A stretch of 64,000 bases of DNA from an uncultured Bacteroidales bacterium (GCA_964550455.1 CAZJZG010000005.1:15008-79007), one strand, 5' to 3'; counted from the stretch's first letter, positions 12,337 through 53,328 are shown. Numbers and translations are program-made. The notes: generated from the sequence alone by a model not told the origin.

Positions 12337-12405
12337 CTATTTCTTGAAGCTCATATCATTTGATTGTATTGGCTTATATTTGCATTTATTAAATTTCATA
12401 CAACT

Positions 12406-12891: not shown

Positions 12892-12992
12892 ATAGGGATT
12901 TAATCTTTATAAAGCTTTAAATAGTTTAAAAGCAGAGGTTCACAGGAATCTTATACAAGTGTTTATGTATTAAAGACGGAGGAGATATTTTT

Positions 12993-22021: not shown

Positions 22022-22213
22022 CTTTACAGCAGGTTACTTTTTTTGTGTGAAACGTAAACAATTGAATGTCATCATGCTTTTTTCAGAAAAGCTTAGCGAC
22101 AAAAATACAATAATAATGTGAGCCTTGGGAAAAGGTTCTGTTTTTGTTAATAAGTTTTTGGGTTGTAGAACATTCAAATGCCTACTACGAAAGGATACTG
22201 AGGAATAATGAAA

Positions 22214-22573: not shown

Positions 22574-22937
22574 TTTTCAACAATTTAGTTAACAAAATTC
22601 AAATCCAATCCGCAAAAATAAAAATATTATTGGTTTATAATCTTATTTAATATTTATTTATTCAATAAAAAATACTGAAATCTCATGTCAATTCTAAGAT
22701 ATTGTCTTTTTTCAGAACAATATATCAGACTGTTATAATGATCGTTAACAGATATGAAATTTAGCTTTCGTTGTTGGAATTAAACGCGAGTAAGTAAAAT
22801 TGACCGGTATGGATTTGGTTGGTATACAACACTAAAGTAGTATATTTGCAAATCTTTTTTGATTAAAATAGGTTGATTGTTTGATATTGGTTTGTTTTTT
22901 GATAATAAGAACAGGAATATAATTAATCGTGCAGATT

Positions 22938-23342
22938 ATGAATTTCAGCAGACTCCTTACAATATTTTTAGTTTTTTTCTTGTTTTCCGTACCTGTAATT
23001 ACTGCTCAGGACGAAGATTACGGGGCTAAGATCTCAAATCTTATTAATAAATCGAACACAAAAGAATTAGCCCAATATTTTAATTCTACAATTCAGTTAG
23101 TCCTTCCGGGTGATGAAGGTCGTTACAGTCGTGTTCAGGCTGAATTTATCATCAAGGATTTTTTCAACAATTATCCTCCTAAATCGTTTAATATCAATCA
23201 TCAGGGTTTATCGTCTGATGGTTCGGAATATTATATAGGAGATTATAAATCGGGCAAAAAAACTTTCAGGACTTACTTTCTTGTAAAAAAAATCAACGAT
23301 CAAAAACTTATACATCAGCTTCGTTTTGAGGAAGATAAATAA
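22938..23342 (+). CDS. DUF4783 domain protein (secreted)
   Basis: The ATG at 22938 gives MNFSRLLTIFLVFFLFSVPVITAQ. STIQLVLPGDEGRYSRVQAEFIIKDFFNNYPPKSF matches the DUF4783 pattern. A TATATTTG box sits at 22841-22848. Confidence 0.6.
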   Translation: MNFSRLLTIFLVFFLFSVPVITAQDEDYGAKISNLINKSNTKELAQYFNSTIQLVLPGDEGRYSRVQAEFIIKDFFNNYPPKSFNINHQGLSSDGSEYYIGDYKSGKKTFRTYFLVKKINDQKLIHQLRFEEDK

Positions 23343-35608: not shown

Positions 35609-36592
35609 ATGTCAAACGAAAATAAAAATATTGAGTGGTTTGTAATTGTGAACCCTAATGCCGGCAGACGCAAAGGTGAGAGAGACTGGCCTGAGATTGC
35701 CAGGCTCCTTGCTGCGGCTAATATACGTTACAAGAGTGTGTTTACACAACATCGTATTCATGCTATACGAATGGCAAGAAAATATGTTGAAATGGGCTAC
35801 CGGAATATTATTGTAGTTGGCGGCGATGGTACTATGAATGAGGTGGTTAATGGTATTTTTACCCAATCCAAAAGACCTTCCAACAGCATTACAGTTGGTC
35901 TTATCCCGGTAGGAACTGGCAACGATTGGTGCCGAATGTTTGGAATACCTTACGATTACAAAAGTGCTATTGATGTGATAACCGGAGACAAGACTTTTTT
36001 GCAGGATGTAGGCTGGGTTAAATTCCAGCAGGAAGGAAAGGAAAAAAACCGCTATTTTGTGAATATGGCAGGTATGGGTTATGATGCTTTAGTAGCTGAA
36101 AAAACAAATAAGCAAAAAGATCAGGGAAAAGGTGGTCCATTGTCTTATATGTTAAATATTTTTTCGAGCTTGTTTTCTTTTAAAGAAACCATGATCGAGA
36201 TATCAGTTGATGGTGAAGATGTTCTGAAAGCTCCTGTATTTACTATGAATGTTGGTATTTGTAAATTCAATGGCGGAGGTATGATGCAGCTTCCGAATGC
36301 AATACCCGATGATGGTATCCTTGATATAACAGTTATTAAAAAACTTAGTCGCTTCAAAGTAGTAAGCTCAGTTGCAAAATTATATGATGGCTCGTTCACG
36401 CGCATGCCTCAGGTAAAAACATTCAAAGGAAAATCAATTGTAATCAATTCAAAACCTGAGGTCTATATGGAGGCTGATGGTGAATCGTTAGGGCATAGCC
36501 CTTTTAAATTTGGCATTGTACCCAAAAGCCTTAAAGTAATTATTGGAAAGGAAATGCAGGTTACGGATACTTCCACTGATTCTCAGCCTTAA
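35609..36592 (+). CDS. diacylglycerol/lipid kinase family protein (YegS-like)
   Basis: 327 aa with the DAGK catalytic motif IIVVGGDGTMNEVVNG and PVGTGNDW. Confidence 0.8.
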   Translation: MSNENKNIEWFVIVNPNAGRRKGERDWPEIARLLAAANIRYKSVFTQHRIHAIRMARKYVEMGYRNIIVVGGDGTMNEVVNGIFTQSKRPSNSITVGLIPVGTGNDWCRMFGIPYDYKSAIDVITGDKTFLQDVGWVKFQQEGKEKNRYFVNMAGMGYDALVAEKTNKQKDQGKGGPLSYMLNIFSSLFSFKETMIEISVDGEDVLKAPVFTMNVGICKFNGGGMMQLPNAIPDDGILDITVIKKLSRFKVVSSVAKLYDGSFTRMPQVKTFKGKSIVINSKPEVYMEADGESLGHSPFKFGIVPKSLKVIIGKEMQVTDTSTDSQP

Positions 36593-38321
36593 GCAGGTCA
36601 ATAAGCTCATTGATTGCATCTTGCTCAGCAATATTTTTTTTCATCAGTGTCTGTCCTTTATACAGGGCAACTCGCCCGTTTCCTTGTCCTACATAGCCAT
36701 AATCAGCATCAGCCATTTCGCCCGGACCATTAACAATACAGCCCATTACTGCAATTTTCAACCCTTTCAGATGCGAAGTAGCCTGTTTTACCCTTTCAAG
36801 TGCAGTTTCAAGGTCATACTGCGTTCTGCCACAACCCGGACAAGCTATATATTCAGTTTGTGTAATACGGCTACGGGTAGCCTGCAATACTCCAAATGCA
36901 ATTCTGGCTAATGTCTGTTTGTCAATTTTATTATTTCTTAGATAGATACCATCGCATAAACCATCATTTAGCAAGGGAGCTAATCTTATGGCTGAACGAA
37001 TGGCAAATCTGTAAATATTATTGTCAGCTTCAGCAAAAGACAATAATACAGGCAGCCTGAAATTGTTTTTATCAATAAAATCAATTATTTTACGGGTCTT
37101 ATGTATTGATGACAAATTACTTAGCTCAAAAACCGGAATGATCTTACTTGTTTTAATTTCTGGAATTTTCAAGAAATCCATTATCGTAGAGGATAAAGGA
37201 TCGAGTAGTAAGTAGTTGATTCCCTGATTTTTGAAGTCGTAATCGGAATTTGTTGTAATTTTTCCTGCATTTCCTTCCGTAATGAGATCTTCGTTAATAG
37301 TGTGAACTTGTGAATCTCCCCAGATTACAACCGGTATATTTCCTCCACCAATATTTTCAATAGTTTTGCTGTGGCGGCGCCGGTAATCAATCAGCGAAGC
37401 GTCAGTAAAAACATCTGAGTTATAAACTATTACACCGTTACCGGTTCTTGGTTCTTCGAAAAATGATAATATTTCCCTGGCAACCGGAATTTCATTTTCG
37501 GGGGCTTCAGTAAGCGAAACTCTGATGGTATTGCCAATACCATCGGCAAGTAGAGTTCCTATACCTGCAGCCGATTTAATTCGTCCTTCAAGCCCATTTC
37601 CTGCCTCAGTAACACCAAGATGTATTGGATACTGCATCTGTTCTGCGAACATTTTTTGAACCAGAAGTCGTGTGGCTGCTACCATTACCCTTACATTGCT
37701 TGATTTCATTGAGAGTACAAGCTGATGAAATTCTGCATTATGACACATCCTCACAAATTCCATTGCCGATTCAGCCATGCCTGCAGGCGTATCACCGTAG
37801 CGCTGCATTATCCTCCCTGACAATGACCCGTGATTTACCCCAATACGTATGGCGGTGCCGTTTTGCCGGCAAATATCAAGCAGAGGTTTAAGTCGTTCGG
37901 AAATCCTAAGTAATTCCGTATTGTATTCATCATCAGAGTATTGGAGGTTTATCTGTCGTTTGTCAACGAAATTTCCGGGATTTATCCTTACTTTTTCTAC
38001 CAGTCCGGCAGCAGTTTCAGCAACTGAAGGACTAAAATGTACATCGGCTATCAGTGGGATATTGATACCGGCATCACGAAGTTCTTTTTTTATATTAGCA
38101 AGGTTCTTAGCTTCTTTATGGTTACGAGCAGTTATTCTGATTAGAGCACAACCGGCTTCAGTAAGCCTTTTACATTGCTCTGCAGTAGCCTTAGTGTCGG
38201 ATGTTGAAGTATTGGTCATTGACTGAACACTTACAGGTTCGCTACCTCCAATAACTACACTCCCGATCTTTACCGGTCGGGGATTCCATATAAGGGATGA
38301 ATTTTGATCAAATGAATTCAT
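36561..38321 (-). CDS. ispG: 4-hydroxy-3-methylbut-2-en-1-yl diphosphate synthase, long form with insert domain
   Basis: 586 aa. It has PVSVQSMTNT, RINPGNF, and the C-terminal 4Fe-4S ligand region ACPGCGRT ... MGCIVNGPGE. It converges with and overlaps the lipid kinase gene by 32 nt. Confidence 0.9.
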   Translation of the reverse strand: MNSFDQNSSLIWNPRPVKIGSVVIGGSEPVSVQSMTNTSTSDTKATAEQCKRLTEAGCALIRITARNHKEAKNLANIKKELRDAGINIPLIADVHFSPSVAETAAGLVEKVRINPGNFVDKRQINLQYSDDEYNTELLRISERLKPLLDICRQNGTAIRIGVNHGSLSGRIMQRYGDTPAGMAESAMEFVRMCHNAEFHQLVLSMKSSNVRVMVAATRLLVQKMFAEQMQYPIHLGVTEAGNGLEGRIKSAAGIGTLLADGIGNTIRVSLTEAPENEIPVAREILSFFEEPRTGNGVIVYNSDVFTDASLIDYRRRHSKTIENIGGGNIPVVIWGDSQVHTINEDLITEGNAGKITTNSDYDFKNQGINYLLLDPLSSTIMDFLKIPEIKTSKIIPVFELSNLSSIHKTRKIIDFIDKNNFRLPVLLSFAEADNNIYRFAIRSAIRLAPLLNDGLCDGIYLRNNKIDKQTLARIAFGVLQATRSRITQTEYIACPGCGRTQYDLETALERVKQATSHLKGLKIAVMGCIVNGPGEMADADYGYVGQGNGRVALYKGQTLMKKNIAEQDAINELIDLLKAENQWKYP

Positions 38322-38362: not shown

Positions 38363-40153
38363 TTATAACTGCGATAGAAATTCAACAAGTCCGGTGTCGG
38401 AATTTGTAAGATTCAATTTGCGCCTCAGGCGGGTACGGGCAACTTCAATACTTCTGATTGATTGTCCGGTAATTGATGCAATTTCCTTGGTGCTCATATT
38501 TAGACGTAAAAAAGCACAAAGTCTGCGGTCGTTTGTCGTAAGATCCGGATTTATAAGGTTGAGTTTATCGTAATATTCATTATGAACCTGCTGAAACCTT
38601 ACCTCAAACTCATTCCATACAGCAGTATTCCGGGTTTTCTTTAAACCCGATACAAAACCGAGAATAAGATGCTGATCTTCTTTGCGCAATGTTTTACTAA
38701 AGTTTTGAAGCTTTTGCGTAATTTCATTCACAAGCTCATTTTGTTGAATTTGATGCATTACATTGGTAGTCAGCTCTTTATTTCGTATTTCCAATTCCTG
38801 ACCAAGAGTGGTTTTTTCGAGTTCAAGGTTTTTTGATACCAGTTGCACATTCTTTTTTTCAAGTTTTAGTCTTTTCATTCTACCCCATAGCAGGAAATAT
38901 AAAAGGGTAAGAATTATAACTGTAAGAAACAATACAAGGCCTGCAATAAAATATCTTAGTTCTTTTCGTTTCTGATTCGCTTGCCTTATAAGGTCCTGCT
39001 GTTCAAACTGCGCTGTAAGCTCAATACGTGTTAATTCTTTCAGAGCCTCATCCTTGTTCATGATATCATTTAATTCCATTAGAAGAATATGATATTTTAA
39101 AGCCGAGTCGCTTTGATTCAGAAGCTGATAATTATTATAAATATCGTTGCATATTTCGGCTTTAAGTGAATTATTTCCAATCTCCTTGGCAATTGAAAAT
39201 GCTTTGTTCAGATATTCCCTGGCTTCTTGATTGTTGTTTAGAATTGTATGATATCGGGCTATCATTTTATACGAGGAAGCTTCGCCGGCACGATCTTTAT
39301 TCTTTAATCTTATTTTCAATGCTTCTTCCATAGGCGATAAAGCTTCTGTGGTCTTATTCATATCCAATAAAACCGAACTTAGATTATTGAACAGCATTGC
39401 AAAAATTTCACTTTCTTCTGAGGTTTTTTCTGCAAGTTCAATCCCTTTGTTGTAGTATTCAATGGCTTTGTTTACATCTTTTTCGCGCTGATAGATAATT
39501 CCGAGATTATTATAAATATGTATTGATTCTTTATCGAACGATTTTGAAGGGTCTGCTGATTCAGCCTGACGGAAGGATTCAAGAGCGCCGAGAAAATATT
39601 TTTCTGCCTGCTCAAATTGATTGAGCTTTATATTTATAGCTCCTAGATTTATCTGTGCGAACGCAATGGGGATTACATTTTCAATCCCATGCTGCAGCTC
39701 GATATATTTCTCAAAATAGTTTACTGCAATAGGGAATAGTCCTTGCGCAAACGAAACATTACCCAGGTTGAACAAAGCATAGGCAACAGATCTCTTGTTC
39801 CCTGTTTTTTCAGCAATTTCAAGGGCTTGCTGAGAGTATTGCAATGAGAGTGACAGATCACTTTTTTCGTGTATCCTTGATATTTCAACAAGTATGTTGA
39901 CTTTTGAAGTGTCGTGCCTTGTGGTTTCGAGCAGATGATATAGCGAATCCAGCCTGCTTTGATTGTTTGCTGCTGTGTGCGAACAAACCCAAATCAGAAT
40001 TGAAACAATAATGAATGTTTTATTTGAAATTCTTTTCAACAATAGCGTTTCTGATTTCAGCAAAAATACAAAAAGTTTATGCTGTTTGAACCATAAAACA
40101 GGCAATGTGAAAATGTATTCAAATAAAAAAGAATTTGTAATTTTATAGCGCAA
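38363..40153 (-). CDS. membrane-anchored TPR-repeat regulator with C-terminal LuxR-type HTH
   Basis: 596 aa. Multiple TPR-like repeats are followed by the TM helix YFIAGLVLFLTVIILTLLYFLLWG and a coiled coil. The C-terminal RRLCAFLRLNMSTKEIASITGQSIRSIEVARTRLRRKL is a LuxR/GerE HTH. The start is uncertain: TTG at 40153 or a downstream TTG near 40040. Confidence 0.7.
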   Translation of the reverse strand: MRYKITNSFLFEYIFTLPVLWFKQHKLFVFLLKSETLLLKRISNKTFIIVSILIWVCSHTAANNQSRLDSLYHLLETTRHDTSKVNILVEISRIHEKSDLSLSLQYSQQALEIAEKTGNKRSVAYALFNLGNVSFAQGLFPIAVNYFEKYIELQHGIENVIPIAFAQINLGAINIKLNQFEQAEKYFLGALESFRQAESADPSKSFDKESIHIYNNLGIIYQREKDVNKAIEYYNKGIELAEKTSEESEIFAMLFNNLSSVLLDMNKTTEALSPMEEALKIRLKNKDRAGEASSYKMIARYHTILNNNQEAREYLNKAFSIAKEIGNNSLKAEICNDIYNNYQLLNQSDSALKYHILLMELNDIMNKDEALKELTRIELTAQFEQQDLIRQANQKRKELRYFIAGLVLFLTVIILTLLYFLLWGRMKRLKLEKKNVQLVSKNLELEKTTLGQELEIRNKELTTNVMHQIQQNELVNEITQKLQNFSKTLRKEDQHLILGFVSGLKKTRNTAVWNEFEVRFQQVHNEYYDKLNLINPDLTTNDRRLCAFLRLNMSTKEIASITGQSIRSIEVARTRLRRKLNLTNSDTGLVEFLSQL

Positions 40154-40165
40154 AACAATTTTAAA

Positions 40166-40243
40166 TAAAAAAGGCGACTTGCGCCGCCTTGAATGTCTTC
40201 ACAACGGAAAAAATCCTTATTGTGAATTGCTTTAAATTGTGCT
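40166..40243 (-). ncRNA. tracrRNA: predicted tracrRNA (about 75 nt)
   Basis: The minus strand reads ACAAUUUAAAGCAAUUCACAA UAAGGAUUUUUUCCGUU GUGAAGACAUUCAA GGCGGCGCAAGUCGCC UUUUUU. The first 21 nt are complementary to nt 2-23 of the CRISPR repeat in GUUGUG orientation (14 bp + 1-nt bulge + 7 bp). A nexus-like AAGG..CCGUU, a small hairpin UGAA-GACA-UUCA, and a GNRA-capped terminator hairpin with U6 (40167-40188) follow. Confidence 0.8.
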
Positions 40244-40244
40244 G

Positions 40245-40252
40245 CAAATATA
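40245..40252 (-). promoter_or_regulatory. -7 promoter box TATATTTG for the tracrRNA
   Basis: Perfect TAnnTTTG (extended TATATTTGCA, as upstream of rplS) ending 4-5 nt before the first anti-repeat nucleotide. A TTTG lies 23 nt upstream, longer than the usual spacing. Confidence 0.6.
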
Positions 40253-40279
40253 AGTAATAATATTTTAATACTTTGCAAA

Positions 40280-43200
40280 ATGATAAAAAAAATTTTAGGA
40301 CTTGATCTTGGTACCAGTTCTATTGGCTGGGCTTTAATAGCTGAAAACAATGATACAGTGGATATTATTGGAATAGGAACCAGAATTATACCATTGAGTA
40401 CAGATGAAAAGGATGAGTTCTCAGCAGGGAACCAGATTTCAAAAAATCAAAAAAGAACTGCTAAACGAACACAGAGGAAAGGATACGATCGCTATCAGTT
40501 ACGAAGAAAGGCACTTGTGTCATTACTTAAATCACTTGATGTTTTACCGGAAGAAGATCTGATGAAACTTGATGCTTTGGAATTATGGAAAATAAGGGCT
40601 AACGCAGTAAACCAAAAAATAGAACTAAAGGAATTTGCAAGAGTTTTGCTTCATTTAAACCAGAAACGTGGATACAAGAGCAGTAGAAGTGATGCAAATC
40701 TTGGAAAGAAAGATACTGAATATGTTGCCGAAGTTAAAGGAAGACACCAATTAATTAAAGAGCAGGGTATTACTATAGGGCAGAAATTTTATTCTGAATT
40801 GATGAACAATAGCAATTACAGGATAAAACAGCAGGTGTTTCCAAGAGAGGCATATATTGAAGAATTTGATTTGATATGTGAAGAACAAAAAAAGCACTAT
40901 CCTGAAATAATAACTGATGAACTTGTTGAAAAACTCAAAAATAAAATTATTTATTATCAGCGTAAATTGAAATCCCAGAAGGGATTAATCAGTATTTGTG
41001 AGTTTGAAGGATTCTTTAAAACTAATAAAAAAGGCAAAGACGTATTTGTAGGACCAAGAGTTGCACCACGTAGTTCTCCGTTGTTTCAGGTTTGTAAAAT
41101 ATGGGAAACAATTAATATTCTGACATTGAAAAACAGAAGGGGAGAAAAATACGAGTTTACCTCTGATGATAAGCAGAAAATATTTGAATATCTTGACAAC
41201 AATGAGAAACTCACTGCTACTGAGCTATACAAAATTATAGGAATTAATAAAAACGATGGTTGGTATCATAACAAACAAATTGAAAGAGGTATTCAGGGTA
41301 ACTTGACTAAAGTTGAAATTCTGAAAGTTCTAAATACTAACAATGAGCATTTGAATTTTGAATTAAGAGTTGATGAAACAGATGAGGAAGCCTTTCTGAT
41401 TGATAAGAATACCGGAGAGATAAAAGAACAAAAGAGTAGAAAAACCATATGTTCAGATATAGAAAAACAGCCGCTTTACCAACTGTGGCATGTAATTTAT
41501 TCTATAAGCGATACAGATGAATGTGAAAATGCTTTGATTAAAAAATTTGGATTTGACTCCGAAACAGCGAAGCGCTTAACTGATATTGATTTCAGAAAAG
41601 GAGGTTTCGGAAACAAATCAAGCAAAGCAATGAGAAAAATACTTCCCTATCTTATTGAGGGCTACATGTATAGCGATGCATGTTCCTTTGCTGGTTATAA
41701 TCATTCCGGTAGCTTGACAACTGACGAGAATTTAAAAAGAGTTTTAATTGATAAGCTGGCTTTACTTCCTAAAAATAGTTTGCGTCAGCCGGTTGTTGAG
41801 AAAATCCTTAATCAAATGATAAATCTTGTTAATGCTATAATTGAAAAATATGGTAAGCCTGATGAGATAAGAATAGAACTTGCACGAGAATTAAAGCAGA
41901 GCAAGGAAGAGCGTAACGATACTTTTAAATTCATGAACAAACGGGAAAAAGAAAATGAAATAATAAGAAAAAGACTAACTGAAGAATATAATGTAAGGGC
42001 TACCAGGAATAATGTAATAAAATTCAGATTGTTTGAGGAAATTGAAAATGAAGATAGCAAAATAAACGCTATGTGTATTTACTGCGGTAAGCATTTTGGA
42101 ATAACTGATGCACTTTCTGGAGATAATGTAGATGTTGAACATATTATTCCAAAATCGTTGCTATTTGATGATTCCCAAAGCAATAAAACACTTTCTCACC
42201 GCCATTGCAATGAGGCAAAGGGCAACCGGACTGCCTATGATTATATGTCGTCAAAAGGAAAAGAAGAGTTTGACGAGTATCTACACCGGGTTGAAATGTT
42301 ATATAAAAACCGGATAATTGGGAAAACTAAACGTGATAAACTCCTGATGCCGCAAAATAAAATCCCTTTGGATTTTATTGAAAGACAGTTACGTGAAACA
42401 CAATATATTTCCAAAAAGGCAAGAGAGATACTTATGCAGGTTTGCCGCAATGTTTGGAGTACCAGTGGTAGTGTTACTGAATATCTGAGAACAATATGGG
42501 GGTGGAATGACGTATTGCATAATTTGCAATTCTCTTTACACAAAGAACATGGATTAACTGAAATAGTTGATTGGGAAAGTAACGGACAATTGCACACACG
42601 TGAAGTAATAAAAGGATGGAATAAACGCGAGGATCACAGACATCATGCCATTGATGCACTTGTAATTGCATGTACAAAGCAAGGATTTATACAGCGTATA
42701 AATAATCTTAGCAGTAAAGGAAATAGAGAAGAAATGTATGAACTGATTAGAGATATGCCTTTTGAATTAAGAGAAAACCTAAGCTTGCTTGAGAAATATC
42801 TGATAATGCAAAGACCATTCACTACAGCAGAGGTTGAAAATAAAGCTGCTGAAATCCTTATTTCGTTTAAACCTGGAAAGAAAGTTGCAACTACCGGCAA
42901 ACGAATAATTAAGAAAAATGGTAGAAAAAAAGTTGTGCAAACTGGTATTATAGTGCCCCGTGGTTCTTTAAGTGAGGAAAGTGTTTATGGCAGAATAAAA
43001 GCATTAAGTACTGATTTTAAGAGTGGTATGCTTGAAAAACATCCTGCAAAATTTTTGTTTAATAATCCTCATCTGATTTTTAAACCTTATATTAAAAATC
43101 TGGTTGAAGCACGCCTGGCTGAATATAATGATGATGTGAAAAAGGCACTTGCTTCATTAAAAAAGAAACCAATATTTCTTGATAAAGATAATAGCGTTGA

Positions 43201-43984
43201 GCTTACATATGCAACATGCTTTTCTGATGAATATGTTTTAAAATATCCGATTGAAAGTATTAAACCTGGAGACGTAAAATATATTGTTGATAAACAAGTT
43301 CAAAAACTTGTTAAGCAACGACTTGACCAATATGATGGTAAATCAAAAGAAGCATTTAAAGAGCCGTTGTGGTTTAATGAAGAAAAGCAAATTGCAATAA
43401 AAACTGTAAGATGTTTTACAGGTTTAAGCTCCACTGAACCAATTAAATATGATGAAGCAGGAAATCCCATAGGTTTTGTTCTACCCGGAAATAACCATCA
43501 TGTAGCGTTTTATATTAATAGTGAGGGAAAAATTGAAGAACATATATGCACTTTTTGGCATGCCGTTGATCGTAAGCGTTTTGGCTTACCTGTAATTATA
43601 AAAGATCCCAAAGTTGTTTGGGATAAAATTATTACTGATAATATTGAATTACCTGCTTCATTCATTGAAAAATTGCCTGCGGACGGATGGATCTTTATGG
43701 AAAGCATGCAGCAGAATGAAATGTTTGTGTTGGGATTGGATAAGGACATTGTAACAGAGGCTCTTAGACTAAATGATAAAAAAACTATTTGTAACAACTT
43801 ATACAGGATTCAGAAGCTTGCTAAGAGTAATTACATGTTTAGGCATCATTTGGAAACTTCTGTTAACGATTCAGAAGATAAAAAAATAACTAAGAAATAT
43901 ATAAATATTCAAAGTAAAGGGGCTTACATATCAAATAATCCCATAAAAATCACTATTGATTATTTAGGCGATATGTACCTGTAA
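40280..43984 (+). CDS. cas9: CRISPR-associated endonuclease Cas9, type II-C
   Basis: 1234 aa. Motifs: RuvC-I MIKKILGLDLGTSSIGWALI (Asp9); Arg-rich bridge helix KRTAKRTQRKGYDRYQLRRKAL; RuvC-II DEIRIELARELK. The HNH motif is DVEHIIPKS...NKTLSHRHCNEAKGNRTAYDY (His621, codon 42140-42142). RuvC-III is HRHHAIDALVIA (His788/His789/Asp792). Only cas1 and cas2 follow (no csn2, no cas4). Confidence 0.97.
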   Translation: MIKKILGLDLGTSSIGWALIAENNDTVDIIGIGTRIIPLSTDEKDEFSAGNQISKNQKRTAKRTQRKGYDRYQLRRKALVSLLKSLDVLPEEDLMKLDALELWKIRANAVNQKIELKEFARVLLHLNQKRGYKSSRSDANLGKKDTEYVAEVKGRHQLIKEQGITIGQKFYSELMNNSNYRIKQQVFPREAYIEEFDLICEEQKKHYPEIITDELVEKLKNKIIYYQRKLKSQKGLISICEFEGFFKTNKKGKDVFVGPRVAPRSSPLFQVCKIWETINILTLKNRRGEKYEFTSDDKQKIFEYLDNNEKLTATELYKIIGINKNDGWYHNKQIERGIQGNLTKVEILKVLNTNNEHLNFELRVDETDEEAFLIDKNTGEIKEQKSRKTICSDIEKQPLYQLWHVIYSISDTDECENALIKKFGFDSETAKRLTDIDFRKGGFGNKSSKAMRKILPYLIEGYMYSDACSFAGYNHSGSLTTDENLKRVLIDKLALLPKNSLRQPVVEKILNQMINLVNAIIEKYGKPDEIRIELARELKQSKEERNDTFKFMNKREKENEIIRKRLTEEYNVRATRNNVIKFRLFEEIENEDSKINAMCIYCGKHFGITDALSGDNVDVEHIIPKSLLFDDSQSNKTLSHRHCNEAKGNRTAYDYMSSKGKEEFDEYLHRVEMLYKNRIIGKTKRDKLLMPQNKIPLDFIERQLRETQYISKKAREILMQVCRNVWSTSGSVTEYLRTIWGWNDVLHNLQFSLHKEHGLTEIVDWESNGQLHTREVIKGWNKREDHRHHAIDALVIACTKQGFIQRINNLSSKGNREEMYELIRDMPFELRENLSLLEKYLIMQRPFTTAEVENKAAEILISFKPGKKVATTGKRIIKKNGRKKVVQTGIIVPRGSLSEESVYGRIKALSTDFKSGMLEKHPAKFLFNNPHLIFKPYIKNLVEARLAEYNDDVKKALASLKKKPIFLDKDNSVELTYATCFSDEYVLKYPIESIKPGDVKYIVDKQVQKLVKQRLDQYDGKSKEAFKEPLWFNEEKQIAIKTVRCFTGLSSTEPIKYDEAGNPIGFVLPGNNHHVAFYINSEGKIEEHICTFWHAVDRKRFGLPVIIKDPKVVWDKIITDNIELPASFIEKLPADGWIFMESMQQNEMFVLGLDKDIVTEALRLNDKKTICNNLYRIQKLAKSNYMFRHHLETSVNDSEDKKITKKYINIQSKGAYISNNPIKITIDYLGDMYL

Positions 43985-44019
43985 ATGTTGAGCAACTTGA
44001 TTTTTATTTGATATTAGCT

Positions 44020-44922
44020 ATGATAAAAAGAACACTTTATTTTGGAAATCCCTGCACCCTTAAGAAAAAGGACATGCAAATGTATGTTGATTTTTCAGAA
44101 AAAGAAAATAAAACACCTGCCGTCATTCCCATAGAAGATATTGGTATTGTGGTACTTGATAGTAATCAGATAGTTATCTCACACGCTTTGATTTCAGCTT
44201 TGATGGATAATAATTGTGCGCTCATTAGTTGTAATGATAAGCATTTGCCATATGGCTTAATGCTTCCAATGTTTTCTCATCATGCTTTTACACAGAAAAT
44301 GCATAATCAAATTAACTCCTCTTTGCCTTTGCGTAAAAATCTGTGGAAGCAGACTGTGATAGCTAAAATTTCAAATCAGGCTGCATTATTAAGAAAAAAC
44401 GGTAAAAACGATAATAAAATGCAATACTATATCAGGCAGGTAAAAAGCGGTGATCCTGAAAATATTGAAGGACGGGCAGCAGCTTATTACTGGGATAATC
44501 TGTTCAATCATTATTTCTCTTTTTACAGAAGCATTGAAGGTGGTTATCCAAATTCTTTCCTTAACTATGGATATGCTGTTTTACTTGCTGTTATTGCAAG
44601 ATCAATTGTTGCAAGCGGTATGATACCATCATTCGGCATACATCACCGCAATAAATACAACCCATGGTGTCTGGCGTCTGATATCATGGAACCATACCGT
44701 CCGTTTGTGGATAAAGTAATTCTCAATATCATGGAAGAGTTTCCTGACAAGGAAGAGCTTACACCTGAAATAAAAAGGCATATTCTTCAGATTCCTGCAA
44801 TGGATATTGTTATTGACCGAAATAACAGCCCTTTGATGATAGGTACACAGCGTACTACTGCATCTTTGGCTGATTGTTTTGAAGGAACTGCACGCCGCAT
44901 ATTATACCCTGAATTAACGTGA
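44020..44922 (+). CDS. cas1: CRISPR-associated endonuclease Cas1 (type II)
   Basis: The ORF track opens at TTG 44008. The ATG at 44020 gives MIKRTLYFGNPCTL, the usual type II Cas1 N-terminus. IEGRAAAYYW, NSFLNYGYAVL and GIHHRNKYNPWCLASDIMEPYRP are present. Confidence 0.95.
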   Translation: MIKRTLYFGNPCTLKKKDMQMYVDFSEKENKTPAVIPIEDIGIVVLDSNQIVISHALISALMDNNCALISCNDKHLPYGLMLPMFSHHAFTQKMHNQINSSLPLRKNLWKQTVIAKISNQAALLRKNGKNDNKMQYYIRQVKSGDPENIEGRAAAYYWDNLFNHYFSFYRSIEGGYPNSFLNYGYAVLLAVIARSIVASGMIPSFGIHHRNKYNPWCLASDIMEPYRPFVDKVILNIMEEFPDKEELTPEIKRHILQIPAMDIVIDRNNSPLMIGTQRTTASLADCFEGTARRILYPELT

Positions 44923-45266
44923 GTACAAAATATTTGAGCCGCTTAAATCAGTATAGAGTTTTGTGGGTTTTTGTGTTTTTTGATTTGCCAACTGCTACTA
45001 AGAAAGACAGGAAGAATTATGCGCAGTTCAGAAAAAATCTTCTGAAAAACGGATTTGCAATGCTTCAATATTCAATTTATATCAGGCATTGTAGTAGTCG
45101 TGAAAATGCCGATGTTCATATAAAACGTGTTAAATCTTTTTTAGCTCCGAAAGGAGAAATCATTATTTTTACATTAACTGATAAACAGTTTGGAATGATG
45201 GAATTTTTTCGTAGCAGTGAAATTTCATCCAGACCCAAAACTCCTCAGCAACTTGAATTGTTTTAA
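44919..45266 (+). CDS. cas2: CRISPR-associated endoribonuclease Cas2
   Basis: 115 aa. The GTG start overlaps the cas1 stop (GTGA at 44919-44922). YRVLWVFVFFDLPT ... FRKNLLKNGFAMLQYSIYIRHC fits the Cas2 ferredoxin-like pattern with the conserved Asp. Confidence 0.9.
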   Translation: MSTKYLSRLNQYRVLWVFVFFDLPTATKKDRKNYAQFRKNLLKNGFAMLQYSIYIRHCSSRENADVHIKRVKSFLAPKGEIIIFTLTDKQFGMMEFFRSSEISSRPKTPQQLELF

Positions 45267-45276
45267 TACAGGAAAT

Positions 45277-45314
45277 GAAAAAACCCTTTATAAATTATTC
45301 ATAAAGGGTTTTTT
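45277..45314. terminator. bidirectional rho-independent terminator between cas2 and the array
   Basis: GAAAAAA CCCTTTAT aaattattc ATAAAGGG TTTTTT: an 8-bp stem flanked by an A-tract and a T-tract, so it can terminate transcripts from either side. Confidence 0.75.
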
Positions 45315-45396
45315 CAAGTGATTTTTCTTTTCAGTCAGACTTCGCAATCATTTGAAATACAGCTCGTTAAGCCGTGTTATGATGTGCGAATCCGGT

Positions 45397-45404
45397 CAAA
45401 GATA
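45397..45404 (-). promoter_or_regulatory. repeat-internal -7 promoter box TATCTTTG (example in repeat 1; present in repeats 1-25)
   Basis: Nt 23-30 of the repeat in crRNA sense match the Bacteroidetes -7 consensus TAnnTTTG perfectly. A partial -33-like TTG sits at repeat nt 2-4. Function as a promoter is inferred, not shown. Confidence 0.45.
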
Positions 45405-47281
45405 CAATTTAAAAGCAATTCACAACTTATAATATCTTTGATCGTTACTGATGTAGGATGTGCGAATCCGGTCAAAGATACAATTTAAAAGCAATTCACA
45501 ACGGATGATGAAGATGAGATACAAGAAGAAATGATGTGCGAATCCGGTCAAAGATACAATTTAAAAGCAATTCACAACTAAATTTTTTGAGCTAAGTTTA
45601 AGCTGTCAGATGTGCGAATCCGGTCAAAGATACAATTTAAAAGCAATTCACAACTAGTTTTATTGATTAGCCTTTCAGGATGTAGATGTGCGAATCCGGT
45701 CAAAGATACAATTTAAAAGCAATTCACAACTACACGCTGGTTGAATCTTGTCCTGAATCAGATGTGCGAATCCGGTCAAAGATACAATTTAAAAGCAATT
45801 CACAACGATTACAAGATGTTCTGGCAATTACTTGGAGATGTGCGAATCCGGTCAAAGATACAATTTAAAAGCAATTCACAACATACTTCGGCAGCGCATG
45901 TTCCGGAAATTCGATGTGCGAATCCGGTCAAAGATACAATTTAAAAGCAATTCACAACATATGTTCCGGTTTCCTGTGCCTTGAAATAGATGTGCGAATC
46001 CGGTCAAAGATACAATTTAAAAGCAATTCACAACTGAACAGCACCCGATGCTTTGCGACCTACAGATGTGCGAATCCGGTCAAAGATACAATTTAAAAGC
46101 AATTCACAACGATTCCCTTATCAGCACCTTGTTTTAATTTGATGTGCGAATCCGGTCAAAGATACAATTTAAAAGCAATTCACAACGACGGTGCCGCTCC
46201 ATCGGCGTATGCGGCAGGATGTGCGAATCCGGTCAAAGATACAATTTAAAAGCAATTCACAACCTGCACGCTTCAGCACTACCTGCTCATCATGATGTGC
46301 GAATCCGGTCAAAGATACAATTTAAAAGCAATTCACAACGTATGTTTGATAATACCGAATACCTGTTTTGATGTGCGAATCCGGTCAAAGATACAATTTA
46401 AAAGCAATTCACAACGAAAAGCACTTATGACACCGCCGGCATAATGATGTGCGAATCCGGTCAAAGATACAATTTAAAAGCAATTCACAACTATCGAAGC
46501 ACAGGACAAGGAGTGTCTTAAGATGTGCGAATCCGGTCAAAGATACAATTTAAAAGCAATTCACAACAATCTCGTTTCAATTTTGAAACTTGCTGCAGAT
46601 GTGCGAATCCGGTCAAAGATACAATTTAAAAGCAATTCACAACAGGTTTTGAGTTTTAGCGTTTACGTATTTTGATGTGCGAATCCGGTCAAAGATACAA
46701 TTTAAAAGCAATTCACAACCCTTGCGCATCGCCTCTCAGTCGTACATCCGATGTGCGAATCCGGTCAAAGATACAATTTAAAAGCAATTCACAACACGCA
46801 ACCAGATGTTTATGACTCTTAACAGGATGTGCGAATCCGGTCAAAGATACAATTTAAAAGCAATTCACAACTTGGGGGTATTCACAGTATCAATGTTATG
46901 AGATGTGCGAATCCGGTCAAAGATACAATTTAAAAGCAATTCACAACGTATGTTTGATAATACCGAATACCTGTTTTGATGTGCGAATCCGGTCAAAGAT
47001 ACAATTTAAAAGCAATTCACAACCTTTGATAAGTTTTTAAAGCCAAGCCTTCCGATGTGCGAATCCGGTCAAAGATACAATTTAAAAGCAATTCACAACT
47101 TCTGTATCTAGTTTTGCAACTTTTTTCAAGATGTGCGAATCCGGTCAAAGATACAATTTAAAAGCAATTCACAACTTCTGTATCTAGTTTTGCAACTTTT
47201 TTCAAGATGTGCGAATCCGGTCAAAGATACAATTTAAAAGCAATTCACAACAGCCATATTCTTTTCCTCCTTTTTTTATTC

Positions 47282-47327
47282 GATGTGCGAATCCGGTCAA
47301 AGAGTCAATTTAAAAGCAATTCACAAC
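47282..47327 (-). repeat. degenerate terminal CRISPR repeat (cas-distal end)
   Basis: It differs from the consensus at 47304-47305 (+ strand AGAGTCAATT versus AGATACAATT). In crRNA sense TGTATCTTTG becomes TGACTCTTTG. Confidence 0.95.
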
Positions 47328-47361: not shown

Positions 47362-48201
47362 TTACTTTAACTGCCTGTGTAGTCTGTGTTTTTGATGGAA
47401 ATATTTAAGGAGCCAAATAGCAAGGTACAGAACTACAAAAACAAAGATGATGATGGCGCCAGAGGGCAGATCTGCTACATATGAAATGTAAAGCCCTGTT
47501 ATACTGCCCAGTATCCCGAAAATAACGGAATAAATGATAATGTGTTTGAAATTTCGGGTTAGCAGGTTGGCAGCCGATTGTGGTATTGTAAGGTATGAGA
47601 TCACAAGGATAATGCCTATAACCCTGATATTCAGTACTATGACTAAAGCCACGAGAGCAATTAATATGTAATTGAAGGTGTTTACCGGTAGTTTATGGCT
47701 TTGGGCGTATTCTTCATCGAACGAGATAAACAGAATGATGCGGTAGAACAAAATAAAGAACAGTATGAGTAATGAGCAAAGAATTATCATGAAATTAATA
47801 TCGGCATCGCTTACGGTAAGAATATTCCCGAAAAGGTAGGTCATAAGATTGGGAGCATATCCGGGGGTAAGGAAAATAAAAATGATACCCAGTGCCATCC
47901 CAAACGACCATATTATTCCAATGGCAGAATCTTCGCGGATTTCAGTCTTTTTTGAGATGAACTCAATACCCAGTGCCGATAGCAGTCCGAAAGCAGCACC
48001 TCCAAGCATTGGATTTATACCAAAAAAATACCCCATTCCAATCCCGCCAAAAGATGCATGAGTGATACCTCCGGCAATGAACACTTTGCGTCGTGCAACT
48101 ATATAAGTTCCGGCAATACCACATGATATACTTGCCAGTAAGGCAGCCAGCAAGGCTTTGCTGAAAAATGAATAGCTGATGAGTTCAAAAAGTTCAGCCA
48201 T
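47362..48201 (-). CDS. znuB: metal (Zn/Mn) ABC transporter permease
   Basis: ORF 47362..48282. The ATG at 48201 (MAELFELISYSFF) lies 1 nt after the upstream ATPase stop. It is polytopic, ZnuB/TroC-like, with GGITHASFGGIGMGYF. Confidence 0.8.
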   Translation of the reverse strand: MAELFELISYSFFSKALLAALLASISCGIAGTYIVARRKVFIAGGITHASFGGIGMGYFFGINPMLGGAAFGLLSALGIEFISKKTEIREDSAIGIIWSFGMALGIIFIFLTPGYAPNLMTYLFGNILTVSDADINFMIILCSLLILFFILFYRIILFISFDEEYAQSHKLPVNTFNYILIALVALVIVLNIRVIGIILVISYLTIPQSAANLLTRNFKHIIIYSVIFGILGSITGLYISYVADLPSGAIIIFVFVVLYLAIWLLKYFHQKHRLHRQLK

Positions 48202-52124: not shown

Positions 52125-52482
52125 ATTAAAAATGTGTTTGGAGAATTAACCATTAAGGTAATATCTAGCTTAACGGTTAAGCTGTCAGAAAATGTCTTTG
52201 ATTATAATTTTAAGGAAAAAATCAAGATTGAACCTGAAATGGTGGTGCAAAGATAAAAACATTTTTTGAATCACAAATATTTTGATGTCAAATGCAATTT
52301 TATTTTTTAGTAAGGTAATGGTTCAGATAAGTAAGGGTTGTTTTGTAAATTACTGAATACCAGGTGACTGTGATTGGGTTGGGAGCGTTTATAGCCCTTA
52401 ATGAGTAAATGACCGGTTTATGGGTTTCTGAAATGTGTCGGGATATATTATAAAGGAATAAGAATGATTGATTTTCTTATTT

Positions 52483-52779
52483 GGCTAATGCCGGTGGCAA
52501 TTGATTATTAAATCATTATGAATAGGAACGGGCTTCAGCCAGTTTTTAAAATAAAACTACCTCAAATCATGGGCTTTAGCCCAAATTAACAGATGTTAAA
52601 TACCTCGCATATAACAAACTAGTTAGACCTTTTTGGCTAAAGCCAGTTTGTTTTCTCCACTTCCATGCTCCCGCCGGTTAAAGCCGGCGGTAATTGATTA
52701 TTAAATCATTATGAATAGGAACGGGCTTTAGTCCGTTTTTAAAATGCAAATAACCCAAAGCATGGGCTTTAGCCCAAAT
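52483..52779. repeat. composite hairpin-rich interspersed repeat block, copy A
   Basis: Built from modules seen again at 61003-61277 in inverted orientation. These include GGCTAATGCCGGTGGCAATTGATTATTAAATCATTATGAATAGGAACGGGCTT(C/T)AG(C/T)C..TTTTTAAAAT and CATGGGCTTTAGCCCAAAT (each twice). TTGGCTAAAGCCAGTTTGTTTTCTCCACTT and CGCCGGTTAAAGCCGGCGG also occur. Confidence 0.85.
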
Positions 52780-52937
52780 CTGAAGCCAGAGTCAACTGAT
52801 TTTCATTTATATCCTGACTTCAATACACTTTTTGAACCACATGTTCCTGATCCAATGCATATTACAAATTCTGTATTGTTGGATCATGGAATGGCAATCA
52901 AAAAAACACTGCTAAAAAAAGATTTTTTGTCATTAAG

Positions 52938-52967
52938 TTTGCCATATTAAAAAAATGTGTAATTTTG
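52938..52967 (+). promoter_or_regulatory. Bacteroidetes-type promoter of rpmE2 (-33 TTTG, -7 TAATTTTG)
   Basis: TTTG at 52938-52941 and TAATTTTG at 52960-52967 are 18 nt apart, 30 nt upstream of the ATG at 52998. Confidence 0.6.
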
Positions 52968-52997
52968 CACCCTCAAAATCAGATAGTAATATTTATT

Positions 52998-53273
52998 ATG
53001 AAGAAAGACATTCATCCAAAGGAATACAGACTGGTTGTTTTTAAAGATATGTCAAACGATTACGCTTTTTTAAGCAGATCAACAGCTAACTCTAAAGAAA
53101 CTATTGTTTGGGAAGATGGTAAGGAATATCCTCTTGTTAAATTAGAGATTTCTCACACTTCTCATCCTTTTTATACTGGAAAGATGAAACTTGTTGACAC
53201 AGCCGGTCGTCTTGATAAATTCAAGGCAAGATATGAAAAACATCTGGAAAACCGGAACATGCAGAACAAGTAA
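52998..53273 (+). CDS. rpmE2: 50S ribosomal protein L31, type B (no Cys Zn-ribbon)
   Basis: The ORF track starts at 52965 inside the promoter. The ATG at 52998 gives [15 protein letters not shown], the canonical L31 N-terminus. The protein has no cysteines, and HPFYTGK is present. Confidence 0.9.
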
Positions 53274-53302
53274 AATCAAATGTTCTTAACTGTTTATAAA
53301 AA

Positions 53303-53328
53303 AGCCCTTCAAAAAGAGGGCTTTTTTT
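53303..53328 (+). terminator. rho-independent terminator after rpmE2
   Basis: AGCCCT - tcaaaaag - AGGGCT followed by TTTTTT. Confidence 0.7.

What the first reader, a model, noticed from the sequence alone, without database searches (positions are those of the whole stretch)
40166..47327. Complete compact type II-C CRISPR-Cas9 module: divergent tracrRNA, cas9 (1234 aa), cas1, cas2, 26-repeat array
This is the only accessory island in the window. It is wedged between a TPR/LuxR regulator gene and a zinc-uptake operon, with no integrase or transposase nearby. Cas9 carries every catalytic motif: Asp9 in GLDLGTSSIGWA, IELAREL, His621 in DVEHIIPKS with the NKTLSHRHCNEAKGN asparagines, and HHAIDA. 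The absence of csn2 and cas4 places it in subtype II-C. Cas1 and Cas2 are intact and translationally coupled (GTGA overlap). Twenty-five of 26 repeats are identical, which suggests a functional and possibly recently active array. The guide-RNA pair needed to reconstitute the effector can be read directly off the sequence: the crRNA handle GUUGUGAAUUGCUUUUAAAUUGU plus the predicted ~75-nt tracrRNA. The class is known. Whether this ortholog is new cannot be decided without a database search.
Basis: partly seen in the sequence, partly recalled or inferred. Interest (0 to 1): 0.75.

Follow-up and report, generated by a model that had tools for sequence, protein, structure and literature searches.

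The report
Intact Bacteroidales type II-C CRISPR-Cas9 locus
This is a complete and apparently working CRISPR-Cas9 immune locus (Cas9, Cas1, Cas2, a tracrRNA gene and 25 spacers) in an uncultured Bacteroidales genome; it is a new, rather compact ortholog of a well-known kind of system, not a new kind of system.

Summary
The locus has cas9 (1234 aa), cas1 and cas2. A 26-repeat array follows: 46-nt repeats, 25 identical, 25 spacers, 23 unique. A divergent tracrRNA gene lies directly upstream of cas9. Profile searches name all three proteins as type II Cas proteins, every nuclease residue is conserved, and no fourth cas gene fits, so the subtype is II-C.

The guide-RNA scaffold is the biochemically validated one of Gasiunas "clade X" (Bacteroidota, 45-50 nt repeats). 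This Cas9 is shorter than the characterised clade X enzymes (1234 vs 1345-1535 aa). It shares only 27-47% identity with the published N-terminal parts of their sequences. It belongs to a populous metagenomic subclade of about 1220-1250 aa with no solved close relative.

Each repeat carries, in crRNA sense, a Bacteroidota promoter (TTG-N18-TATCTTTG). This fits the known II-C pattern of repeat-embedded promoters firing toward the cas-proximal variable end.

The cas genes are under purifying selection (dN/dS 0.04-0.16), and the locus sits in the same place in a 94% relative.

No protospacer was found, so the PAM remains unknown.

Verdict: a real, ordinary, probably functional locus and a new member of a known kind. 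Interest is low to moderate.

The parts
40165..40241 (-). tracrRNA gene, about 76 nt. It comprises the anti-repeat (40241-40219), the nexus AAUAAGG-AUUUUUU-CCG, a linker, a terminator hairpin (40190-40171) and a U-run (40170-40165).
   Evidence: Sequence reading. Terminator scan. A repeat-tracrRNA fusion folds into a 22-bp duplex with a 1-nt bulge plus a 3' hairpin, at -40.1 kcal/mol and z -6.5. The core is near-invariant in 30 related loci. The same core is used in validated sgRNAs of clade X Cas9s (PMC7606464 supplement).
40245..40252 (-). Bacteroidota -7 promoter box TATATTTG of the tracrRNA. It predicts a transcription start near 40241-40238.
   Evidence: Sequence reading. It is the only perfect TAnnTTTG between 40100 and 40290. 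A TAnnTTTG box occurs upstream of the anti-repeat in 20 of 31 related loci. Consensus as given in PMC12632263.
40280..43984 (+). cas9, 1234 aa. RuvC-I D9, RuvC-II E533, HNH H621/N644, RuvC-III H789/D792, and a C-terminal WED/PI region from about residue 860 to 1234.
   Evidence: The C-terminal AF2 model (pLDDT 82.7) has 47 hits at E<=1 in the PDB, all of them Cas9 or Cas9d chains, with CbCas9 best.
44020..44922 (+). cas1, type II, 300 aa. An alternative TTG start lies at 44008.
   Evidence: Gene calls on identical contigs.
44919..45266 (+). cas2, 115 aa. Its GTG start overlaps the cas1 stop (GTGA).
45276..45316 (.). A 19-bp hairpin flanked by an A-run and a T-run. It is likely a bidirectional terminator that ends the cas operon and stops antisense read-through from the array.
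   Evidence: and sequence. Function is inferred.
45267..45380 (.). Leader-side flank. This is the cas2-proximal, presumed variable end of the array.
   Evidence: The flank is nearly identical in the 94% relative, while the first spacers differ between samples of that relative. Polarity is inferred from the shared degenerate repeat at the other end.
45381..47327 (-). CRISPR array with 26 repeats of 46 nt and 25 spacers. The crRNA-sense repeat is GTTGTGAATTGCTTTTAAATTGTATCTTTGACCGGATTCGCACATC. Each repeat carries TTG (positions 2-4), 18 nt, then TATCTTTG (positions 23-30).
   Evidence: The -7 box is present in 25 of 26 repeats on the minus strand. It is present in 18 of 41 distinct family repeats in the sense orientation and 0 of 41 in the antisense orientation.
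47282..47327 (-). Terminal degenerate repeat at the old (trailer) end. Its two substitutions destroy the TA of the -7 box and repeat position 23.
   Evidence: The same GAGTC change is present in the terminal repeat of the 94% relative.

Best explanation
This is a resident, intact type II-C CRISPR-Cas9 adaptive-immunity locus. The host is an uncultured Bacteroidales bacterium; the nearest named relatives are Lentimicrobium and Lentimicrobiaceae.

Shown by sequence and profile evidence: Cas9, Cas1 and Cas2 are complete and under purifying selection. The tracrRNA gene lies divergently upstream of cas9 and pairs over 22 bp with the 5' part of each repeat.

Inferred mechanism:
1. Cas1-Cas2 insert new 30-nt spacers at the cas2-proximal end of the array.
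2. crRNAs are made on the minus strand, antisense to the cas genes. Transcription starts from a Bacteroidota sigma-A promoter inside every repeat (-33 TTG, 18 nt, -7 TATCTTTG), at about repeat position 34-37. Each transcript therefore carries about 10 nt of repeat tail, one spacer and the next repeat, and runs toward the variable end.
3. The tracrRNA has its own TATATTTG box. It pairs with the repeat handle, and Cas9 binds the duplex, nexus and 3' hairpin. RNase III and/or trimming may shorten the RNAs.
4. The complex cuts DNA that matches the spacer next to a still unknown 3' PAM, which is read by a divergent C-terminal PI domain.
For: Protein identity:
- TIGR01865 at 502 bits, TIGR03639 at 283 bits and TIGR01573 at 72 bits, plus PADLOC Cas9, Cas1_II and Cas2_II.
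- E533, H621, N644, H789 and D792 are invariant, and D9 is at least 90% conserved, across 28 homologs.
- The best matches among solved structures are all Cas9s, led by type II-C enzymes: ThermoCas9, CbCas9, GeoCas9 and Nme. The C-terminal model's 47 hits at E<=1 are all Cas9 or Cas9d chains.

tracrRNA:
- Anti-repeat, nexus and terminator are present.
- In almost all of the 44 related loci tested, the best anti-repeat match lies on the minus strand, in most of them within about 150 nt upstream of cas9.
- The tracrRNA core is near-invariant in 30 related loci.
- Repeat and anti-repeat co-vary: own-pair duplex energy averages -27.5 kcal/mol against -20.2 for cross pairs.
- The same scaffold is used in working sgRNAs of nine clade X Cas9s (PMC7606464 supplement).

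Repeat promoter:
- A perfect TAnnTTTG box is in 25 of 26 repeats.
- It occurs in 18 of 41 distinct family repeats in sense, 0 of 41 in antisense, and a mean of 2.3 (maximum 7) in shuffles.
- In this window the motif occurs at 3.43 per kb in intergenic sequence and 0.93 per kb in coding sequence.
- Repeat-encoded promoters that fire toward the variable end are the published II-C pattern (PMC8092290, PMC10309648).

Function and residency:
- dN/dS is 0.16 for cas9, 0.05 for cas1 and 0.04 for cas2 against the 94% relative.
- The identical Cas9 occurs in at least four other assemblies, and the 94% ortholog has the same ispG-TPR-cas-znu synteny.
- The degenerate terminal repeat is shared with the relative.
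Against: No expression data, cleavage data or PAM are available.

No protospacer was found for any spacer in GenBank phages, in PLSDB plasmids, in 7 IMG/VR scans or in 2 metagenome scans. Recent activity is therefore unproven.

The -33 element is only TTG, with an 18-nt spacing (per Hoikkala et al. for Flavobacterium).

Only 18 of 41 family repeats keep a perfect -7 box. The others have near-matches, so the promoter reading is not universal.

Related sequences inflate the motif statistics.

No perfect promoter box was found for cas9 itself.
Confidence: 0.88

Rival explanations
1. The locus is the same, but crRNAs come from one long pre-crRNA. That transcript would start beyond the trailer end (the znuB side) and be cut by RNase III with the tracrRNA, as in type II-A. 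On this reading the TATCTTTG in the repeat is conserved for another reason, such as Cas9 or Cas1-Cas2 recognition.
For: Twenty-three of 41 family repeats lack a perfect box. A paper on Riemerella II-C repeats reported finding no repeat promoter (PMC5006608). The 22-bp repeat:anti-repeat duplex is a plausible RNase III substrate.
Against: The box is strand-specific (18 vs 0) and sits at a fixed distance of 14-17 nt from the repeat's 3' end in 15 of the 18 repeats that carry it. The 3' half of the repeat is otherwise free to vary between loci. The tracrRNA gene uses the same kind of box. Phage sequence that matches the repeat reads as an ordinary TTTG-N18-TATCTTTG promoter. Published II-C systems use repeat promoters.
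Confidence: 0.25
2. The locus is an inactive relic. The genes are intact by chance or only recently silenced, and the array is a fossil that no longer acquires spacers or interferes.
For: No spacer matches any sequence searched. Two spacers are duplicated. In the 94% relative the array appears reduced to one repeat plus a 292-nt insert plus the terminal repeat.
Against: dN/dS is 0.04-0.16 on all three genes. All catalytic residues are kept. Twenty-five repeats are identical. The tracrRNA, its promoter box and its terminator are intact. The first spacers differ between samples of the relative. Lack of protospacer hits is usual for uncultured hosts.
Confidence: 0.07
3. The array is read on the + strand from a leader promoter next to cas2, so the guides are the + strand spacers.
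For: The array lies downstream of cas2 and an AT-rich flank lies between them. A sigma-70-like TTGATG-N18-TACAAT match is seen on the + strand at four repeats.
Against: A + strand crRNA would need a + strand anti-repeat transcript, and that transcript would run straight into cas9 with no nexus or terminator. The nexus and terminator exist only on the minus strand. The sigma-70 matches depend on spacer bases and number fewer than in shuffles (22 vs 30.5). E. coli-type promoters do not work in Bacteroides (PMC12632263). The GTTGTG...CAAC orientation is that of all validated clade X crRNAs.
Confidence: 0.02

Closest known systems
Gasiunas et al. 2020 'clade X' Cas9 orthologs: Cga (Chryseobacterium gallinarum), Cme1, Ffr, Ghy2, Phi, Psp, Cca1, Orh, Wvi (PMC7606464)
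   Same: Bacteroidota-type repeats of 45-50 nt that begin GUUGUGA(A/U)UUGCUUU. The tracrRNA core is ...CACAAUAAGGAUUAUUCCGUUGUGAAAACAUU plus one terminator hairpin. The window differs at about 3 positions, and its 3' hairpin is almost that of Cga. All are type II Cas9s with in-vitro validated sgRNAs.
   Different: This Cas9 has 1234 aa, against 1345-1535 aa. Local identity to the roughly 400 N-terminal residues published for those proteins is 27-47%, and the longer proteins carry extra REC-lobe sequence. The repeat:anti-repeat duplex has a 1-nt bulge, whereas the paper says clade X duplexes are typically fully paired. The PAM is unknown, and clade X PAMs vary widely (BRRTTTW, NARNCCN, NNAAAR and others), so it cannot be transferred.
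CbCas9 (Chryseobacterium; PDB 8iyq, 8wmm)
   Same: It is the best structural match for the C-terminal WED/PI region (Foldseek E about 6e-10) and among the best sequence matches in the PDB (E 5e-53). It is a Bacteroidota type II-C enzyme.
   Different: It has 1442 aa. Identity over the C-terminal region is only 14-15%. CbCas9 works with the accessory protein PcrIIC1, and no extra gene sits in this locus.
Neisseria meningitidis and Campylobacter jejuni type II-C systems (Zhang et al. 2013, as cited in PMC8092290 and PMC5006608)
   Same: The system has three cas genes (cas9, cas1, cas2) and an array. Promoters are embedded in each repeat. [quoted passage not shown]
   Different: The promoter here is the Bacteroidota -33/-7 type (TTG-N18-TAnnTTTG). 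The repeat is 46 nt. The predicted start leaves about 10 nt of repeat 5' of the spacer. Cas9 sequence similarity is weak (PDB E about 1e-42).
Flavobacterium columnare and F. psychrophilum type II-C loci (PMC8092290, PMC10309648)
   Same: Bacteroidota II-C loci in which a repeat-encoded promoter and transcription toward the leader end were proposed and are weakly supported by RNA-seq. Most new spacers are 30 nt.
   Different: Those papers name only a -33 TTG in the repeat. Here a perfect -7 box is also present. Those loci carry other Cas9 orthologs, and F. columnare has parDE inside the locus.

Membership tests
Type II CRISPR-Cas (Cas9 effector) | A single large effector with a split RuvC (motifs I, II, III) and an inserted HNH domain, with catalytic residues present | tested here: met
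   TIGR01865 at 502 bits, with Pfam RuvC_III and HNH_4. D9, E533, H621, N644, H789 and D792 are conserved in 28 homologs.
Type II CRISPR-Cas (Cas9 effector) | A C-terminal WED/PAM-interacting region of Cas9 fold | tested here: met
   The AF2 model of residues 860-1234 has pLDDT 82.7. Its 47 PDB hits at E<=1 are all Cas9 or Cas9d chains, with CbCas9 best at E 5.5e-10. The TM-score is low (0.38) because the region has several domains.
Type II CRISPR-Cas (Cas9 effector) | A tracrRNA with an anti-repeat complementary to the repeat, a nexus and a terminator | tested here: met
   A 22-bp duplex with one bulge, the AAUAAGG-N-CCG nexus and a hairpin plus U-run. It is conserved and co-varies with the repeat in related loci. 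No Rfam family matches it.
Type II CRISPR-Cas (Cas9 effector) | Guide-dependent, PAM-dependent dsDNA cleavage | not testable with these tools
   This needs in-vitro or in-vivo assays. No protospacers were found from which to infer a PAM.
Subtype II-C | Only cas9, cas1 and cas2 are present, with no csn2 (II-A) and no cas4 (II-B) | tested here: met
   Gaps between tracrRNA, cas9, cas1, cas2 and the array are at most 114 nt. The flanking genes are TPR, ispG and znuBCA. Cas1 fits the NMENI/type II model.
Subtype II-C | Cas9 groups with II-C orthologs | tested here: met
   The best solved relatives are ThermoCas9, CbCas9, GeoCas9, Nme and Hpa, all II-C. No formal phylogeny was built.
Bacteroidota long-repeat Cas9 group (Gasiunas clade X) | Repeats of 45-50 nt and the shared tracrRNA core CACAAUAAGGAUUAUUCCGUUGUGAAAACAU | tested here: met
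   The repeat is 46 nt. The window's core CACAAUAAGGAUUUUUUCCGUUGUGAAGACAU differs from the consensus at about 3 positions.
Bacteroidota long-repeat Cas9 group (Gasiunas clade X) | Cas9 protein clusters within the clade | tested here: inconclusive
   Local identity to the published N-terminal parts is only 27-47%, and the protein is 110-300 aa shorter. No tree was built, so it may be a sister subclade.
II-C repeat-embedded promoter mechanism | A host-type promoter inside each repeat, in crRNA sense, firing toward the variable end | tested here: inconclusive
   The motif evidence is strong: 25 of 26 repeats, 18 vs 0 by strand across the family, and enrichment in intergenic sequence. No transcript data exist.

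The most novel reading that the evidence does not exclude
The 1234-aa protein would represent a large, biochemically untouched subclade of compact Bacteroidota Cas9s (about 1220-1250 aa; at least 120 clusters at 56-94% identity). This subclade keeps the validated clade X guide scaffold but has a shortened REC lobe. Its PI domain is only about 15% identical to any solved one, so it could read a new PAM. In addition, its 46-nt repeats may each be a complete -33/-7 Bacteroidota promoter. That would explain why this group's repeats are 10 nt longer than usual, and it would give one primary crRNA per repeat without a leader promoter.
Probability: 0.4. Interest if true: 0.4.

Novelty: new member of a known kind. 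Interest (0 to 1): 0.25.

Why it matters
For biology it adds little. Type II-C loci with this gene order, divergent tracrRNA and repeat-borne promoters are well described, and the guide scaffold has already been validated for relatives.

Its practical value is as a ready-to-test ortholog. The crRNA handle, tracrRNA and an sgRNA design can be read off the sequence. The protein is 110-300 aa shorter than the characterised Bacteroidota long-repeat Cas9s, and its PAM is unknown.

The perfect -7 box inside the repeat offers a simple, testable reason for the 46-47-nt repeat length in this group. I found only the -33 TTG mentioned for this in the papers I could search.

Tried and rejected
1. Protospacer and PAM search. 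I ran the whole array by blastn against GenBank phages and PLSDB plasmids. I scanned seven spacer seeds against IMG/VR and two against JGI metagenomes. The only hits were three 20-mer matches that stop at 22-23 of 30 positions and lack any repeat. These are chance matches. No PAM could be derived.

2. Self-targeting. No spacer matches the rest of the window over more than 14 nt.

3. Phage-borne repeat mimic. Two microvirus-size records match about 30-38 nt of the repeat at E 0.6. On inspection, one reads as an ordinary TTTG-N18-TATCTTTG promoter. I therefore read the similarity as promoter-likeness or chance, not as an anti-CRISPR RNA. I did not pursue it further.

4. tracrRNA-internal helix. 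RNAalifold on the tracrRNA alone pairs UCACAAU with GUUGUGA. All of those pairs are invariant, so there is no covariation. In the fusion fold the anti-repeat pairs with the crRNA instead. I do not count this helix as a feature.

5. Rfam. No family matches the tracrRNA or anything else in the window.

6. Sigma-70 promoter scan. It found fewer sites than in shuffles (22 vs 30.5). This consensus is not informative for Bacteroidota.

7. Association of the TPR gene with cas9. None of 80 related loci has ispG, TPR or znuB next to cas9. The neighbour is incidental.

Full report
**Observation**

The long ORFs are cas9 (40280-43984, + strand, 1234 aa), cas1 (ending at 44922) and cas2 (44919-45266). Tandem Repeats Finder, the repeat finder and a direct count give an array at 45381-47327.
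- It has 26 copies of a 46-nt repeat.
- Twenty-five copies are identical. The last copy (47282-47327) has two substitutions.
- There are 25 spacers, 24 of 30 nt and one of 31 nt. Twenty-three are unique.
- Spacer 13 equals spacer 21. Spacer 23 equals the adjacent spacer 24.

A sequence almost identical to the crRNA-sense repeat start (ATTGTGAATTGCTTTAAATTGTG) lies at 40219-40241 on the + strand. The complementary anti-repeat is therefore on the minus strand, divergent from cas9.

**Proteins**

- Cas9 matches TIGR01865 at 502 bits (cutoff 100) and has Pfam RuvC_III and HNH_4.
- Cas1 matches the type II model TIGR03639 at 283 bits and PADLOC Cas1_II at 360 bits.
- Cas2 matches TIGR01573 and PADLOC Cas2_II.
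- In an alignment with 27 homologs, E533, H621, N644, H789 and D792 are invariant and D9 is at least 90% conserved.
- cas1 most likely starts at ATG 44020 (MIKRTLYF), as called on identical contigs elsewhere, not at the longest-ORF TTG at 44008.
- There is no room for a fourth cas gene, so the subtype is II-C.

**Guide RNAs**

Read on the minus strand, the stretch upstream of cas9 is TATATTTG-CAG-CACAAUUUAAAGCAAUUCACAAU-AAGGAUUUUUUCCG-UUGUGAAGACAUUC-AAGGCGGCGCAAGUCGCCUU-UUUUUU. These segments are, in order:
1. a Bacteroidota -7 promoter box;
2. the anti-repeat;
3. a canonical AAUAAGG...CCG nexus;
4. a linker;
5. a terminator hairpin, found by the scan at 40190-40171.

A repeat-GAAA-tracrRNA fusion folds into a 22-bp duplex with one bulged U, a nexus-region stem and the 3' hairpin. 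Its energy is -40.1 kcal/mol, against -19 ± 3 for shuffles (z -6.5).

I fetched 80 loci encoding relatives (41-69% identity) from GTDB genomes and detected an array in 47 of them.
- Repeats are mostly 46-47 nt.
- Arrays are nearly always downstream of cas2, with the crRNA sense opposite to cas9.
- In almost all of the 44 loci tested, the best anti-repeat match lies on the minus strand, in most of them within about 150 nt upstream of cas9.
- The tracrRNA core CACAAUAAGGAUUAUUCCGUUGUGAAAACAUU is near-invariant in 30 loci, while the terminator hairpin varies.
- Each repeat pairs better with its own anti-repeat than with those of other loci. Mean duplex energy is -27.5 against -20.2 kcal/mol, and the own partner ranks first in 15 of 32 cases.

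**Link to validated systems**

The supplement of Gasiunas et al. 2020 (PMC7606464) lists nine "clade X" Cas9s: Cca1, Cga, Cme1, Ffr, Ghy2, Orh, Phi, Psp and Wvi.
- They have 45-50-nt repeats and the same tracrRNA core.
- Working sgRNAs and measured PAMs are given for each.
- The window's tracrRNA is almost that of Chryseobacterium gallinarum Cga.

The guide scaffold is therefore already validated for relatives. The proteins differ, however.
- The characterised ones have 1345-1535 aa.
- The published first 400 or so residues show 27-47% local identity to the window Cas9 and contain extra REC sequence.

By sequence, the closest solved structures are distant: ThermoCas9 at E 1e-55, CbCas9 at 5e-53, GeoCas9 at about 1e-52 and Nme at about 1e-42.

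An AlphaFold model of residues 860-1234, built with 37 homologs, has a mean pLDDT of 82.7. All 47 of its PDB hits at E<=1 are Cas9 or Cas9d chains. The best is CbCas9 (E 5.5e-10, 14-15% identity), followed by Nme, Hpa and Geo. The region is thus a Cas9 WED/PI domain, but too divergent for PAM transfer.

The protein database holds at least 120 clusters of 1200-1320 aa at 56-94% identity. Where named, they come from Bacteroidales, Chitinophagales, Cytophagaceae and Ignavibacteria MAGs. This is a populous compact subclade. I found no paper on it in the searchable library. That is not proof that none exists.

**How the array is probably expressed**

In crRNA sense the repeat reads G-TTG-(18 nt)-TATCTTTG-ACCGGATTCGCACATC. 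TATCTTTG is a perfect match to the Bacteroidota -7 consensus TAnnTTTG (PMC12632263). TTG is the -33 element reported for Flavobacterium (PMC8092290).
- The box is present in 25 of 26 repeats on the minus strand. The degenerate terminal repeat has lost it.
- Across the family it is perfect in 18 of 41 distinct repeats in sense and in 0 of 41 in antisense. Shuffles give a mean of 2.3 and a maximum of 7. These repeats are related, so the numbers are indicative only.
- In 15 of those 18 repeats it sits 14-17 nt from the repeat's 3' end, although the 3' half of the repeat is otherwise free to vary.
- In this window the motif occurs at 3.43 per kb in intergenic DNA and 0.93 per kb in coding DNA, as expected if the host uses it.
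- The host is an uncultured Bacteroidales bacterium. Its Lon protease is 71% identical to that of Lentimicrobium saccharophilum, and the closest Cas9 among the 80 best-matching GTDB loci returned is from a Lentimicrobiaceae MAG.

Repeat-embedded promoters that fire toward the variable end are the published type II-C pattern. This is reported for Neisseria and Campylobacter and proposed for Flavobacterium (PMC8092290, PMC10309648). That this happens here is inference from motifs.

**Polarity and residency**

- The identical Cas9 occurs in at least four other metagenome assemblies.
- A 94% ortholog occurs in several more.
- In every case the locus lies between the same ispG-TPR genes and the znuBCA-rho genes.
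- None of the 80 more distant loci shares these flanks. The cassette has moved over long evolutionary time but is resident in this lineage.
- The terminal repeat on the znuB side carries the same GAGTC change in the 94% relative. That side is therefore the old end.
- The first spacer next to cas2 differs between samples of the relative, which fits a variable cas2-proximal end.
- A 19-bp hairpin with A- and T-runs at 45276-45316 could terminate both the cas operon and antisense transcripts leaving the array.

Against the 94% relative, dN/dS is 0.16 for cas9, 0.05 for cas1 and 0.04 for cas2. All three genes are under purifying selection.

**What could not be shown**

No spacer has a credible target in GenBank phages, in PLSDB plasmids, in IMG/VR (7 seeds) or in JGI metagenomes (2 seeds). 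The three 20-mer hits stop at 22-23 of 30 matches. There is no self-target in the window. The PAM and any recent activity are therefore unknown. No perfect promoter box was found for cas9 itself.

**Verdict**

This is a normal, intact and probably functional type II-C CRISPR-Cas9 locus of the Bacteroidota long-repeat kind. It carries a new, compact Cas9 ortholog. It is a new member of a known kind, with modest practical interest (a smaller protein, a ready sgRNA design, an unknown PAM) and little conceptual surprise.

Noticed in passing
Phage records MT838317.1 3879-3916 (L094 1497-1534) and PQ006225.1 3087-3117 (L095 3001-3031), matched against the window repeat 45381-47327: Two microvirus-size phage genomes match about 30-38 nt of the crRNA-sense repeat start at 89-92% identity (E 0.6 each). 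The second match is intergenic in a complete Microviridae genome. The first reads TTTG-N18-TATCTTTG, an ordinary Bacteroidota promoter. The likeness may therefore only reflect that the repeat is promoter-like. A phage-borne repeat mimic was not excluded.
   Followed up: partly
L085 10090-10473 (also L086), the 94%-identical Cas9 relative: Between one full repeat and the degenerate terminal repeat there are no normal spacers. Instead there is a 292-nt insert with a TATATTTG box and a 78-aa ORF (10179-10415) that has no Pfam hit and no significant PHROG hit (best E 0.059). It could be a real insertion into the array or a short-read assembly artefact.
   Followed up: partly
window 40280-45266 compared with 36561-38321 and 47362-48201: Synonymous divergence from the 94% relative is 2-5 times higher in the cas genes (dS 0.20-0.28) than in the flanking ispG (0.087) and znuB (0.052). 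This suggests that the cas cassette has been exchanged between strains or evolves faster than its surroundings.
   Followed up: no
window 46340-46369 and 46948-46977; 47100-47129 and 47176-47205: Two spacers are duplicated. One pair is non-adjacent (spacers 13 and 21) with different neighbours. The other pair is adjacent (23 and 24), which looks like a repeat-spacer unit duplication.
   Followed up: no
window 38363-40153 (-): The upstream 596-aa TPR protein has only a sub-threshold C-terminal GerE/LuxR or sigma-70 region 4 HTH hit (E about 9e-4). It is not next to cas9 in any of 80 related loci, so it is probably unrelated to the CRISPR locus.
   Followed up: yes
window 40255-40284 (+): cas9 has no perfect TAnnTTTG box upstream. 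The nearest candidate is TACTTTG, ending 4 nt before the ATG, which would imply a leaderless or near-leaderless mRNA. The cas9 promoter is unresolved and must overlap the tracrRNA gene.
   Followed up: no
window 22001-23000, 11001-13000 and 52125-53326: These are low-GC patches (0.30-0.34), and there is a stretch of about 600 nt with no ORF of 40 aa or more upstream of rho. Small ORFs at 22214-23342 and 11419-12891 gave no PADLOC hit, and no Rfam family matches anywhere in the window. They were not examined further, so the claim that this is the 'only accessory island in the window' stays untested.
   Followed up: partly
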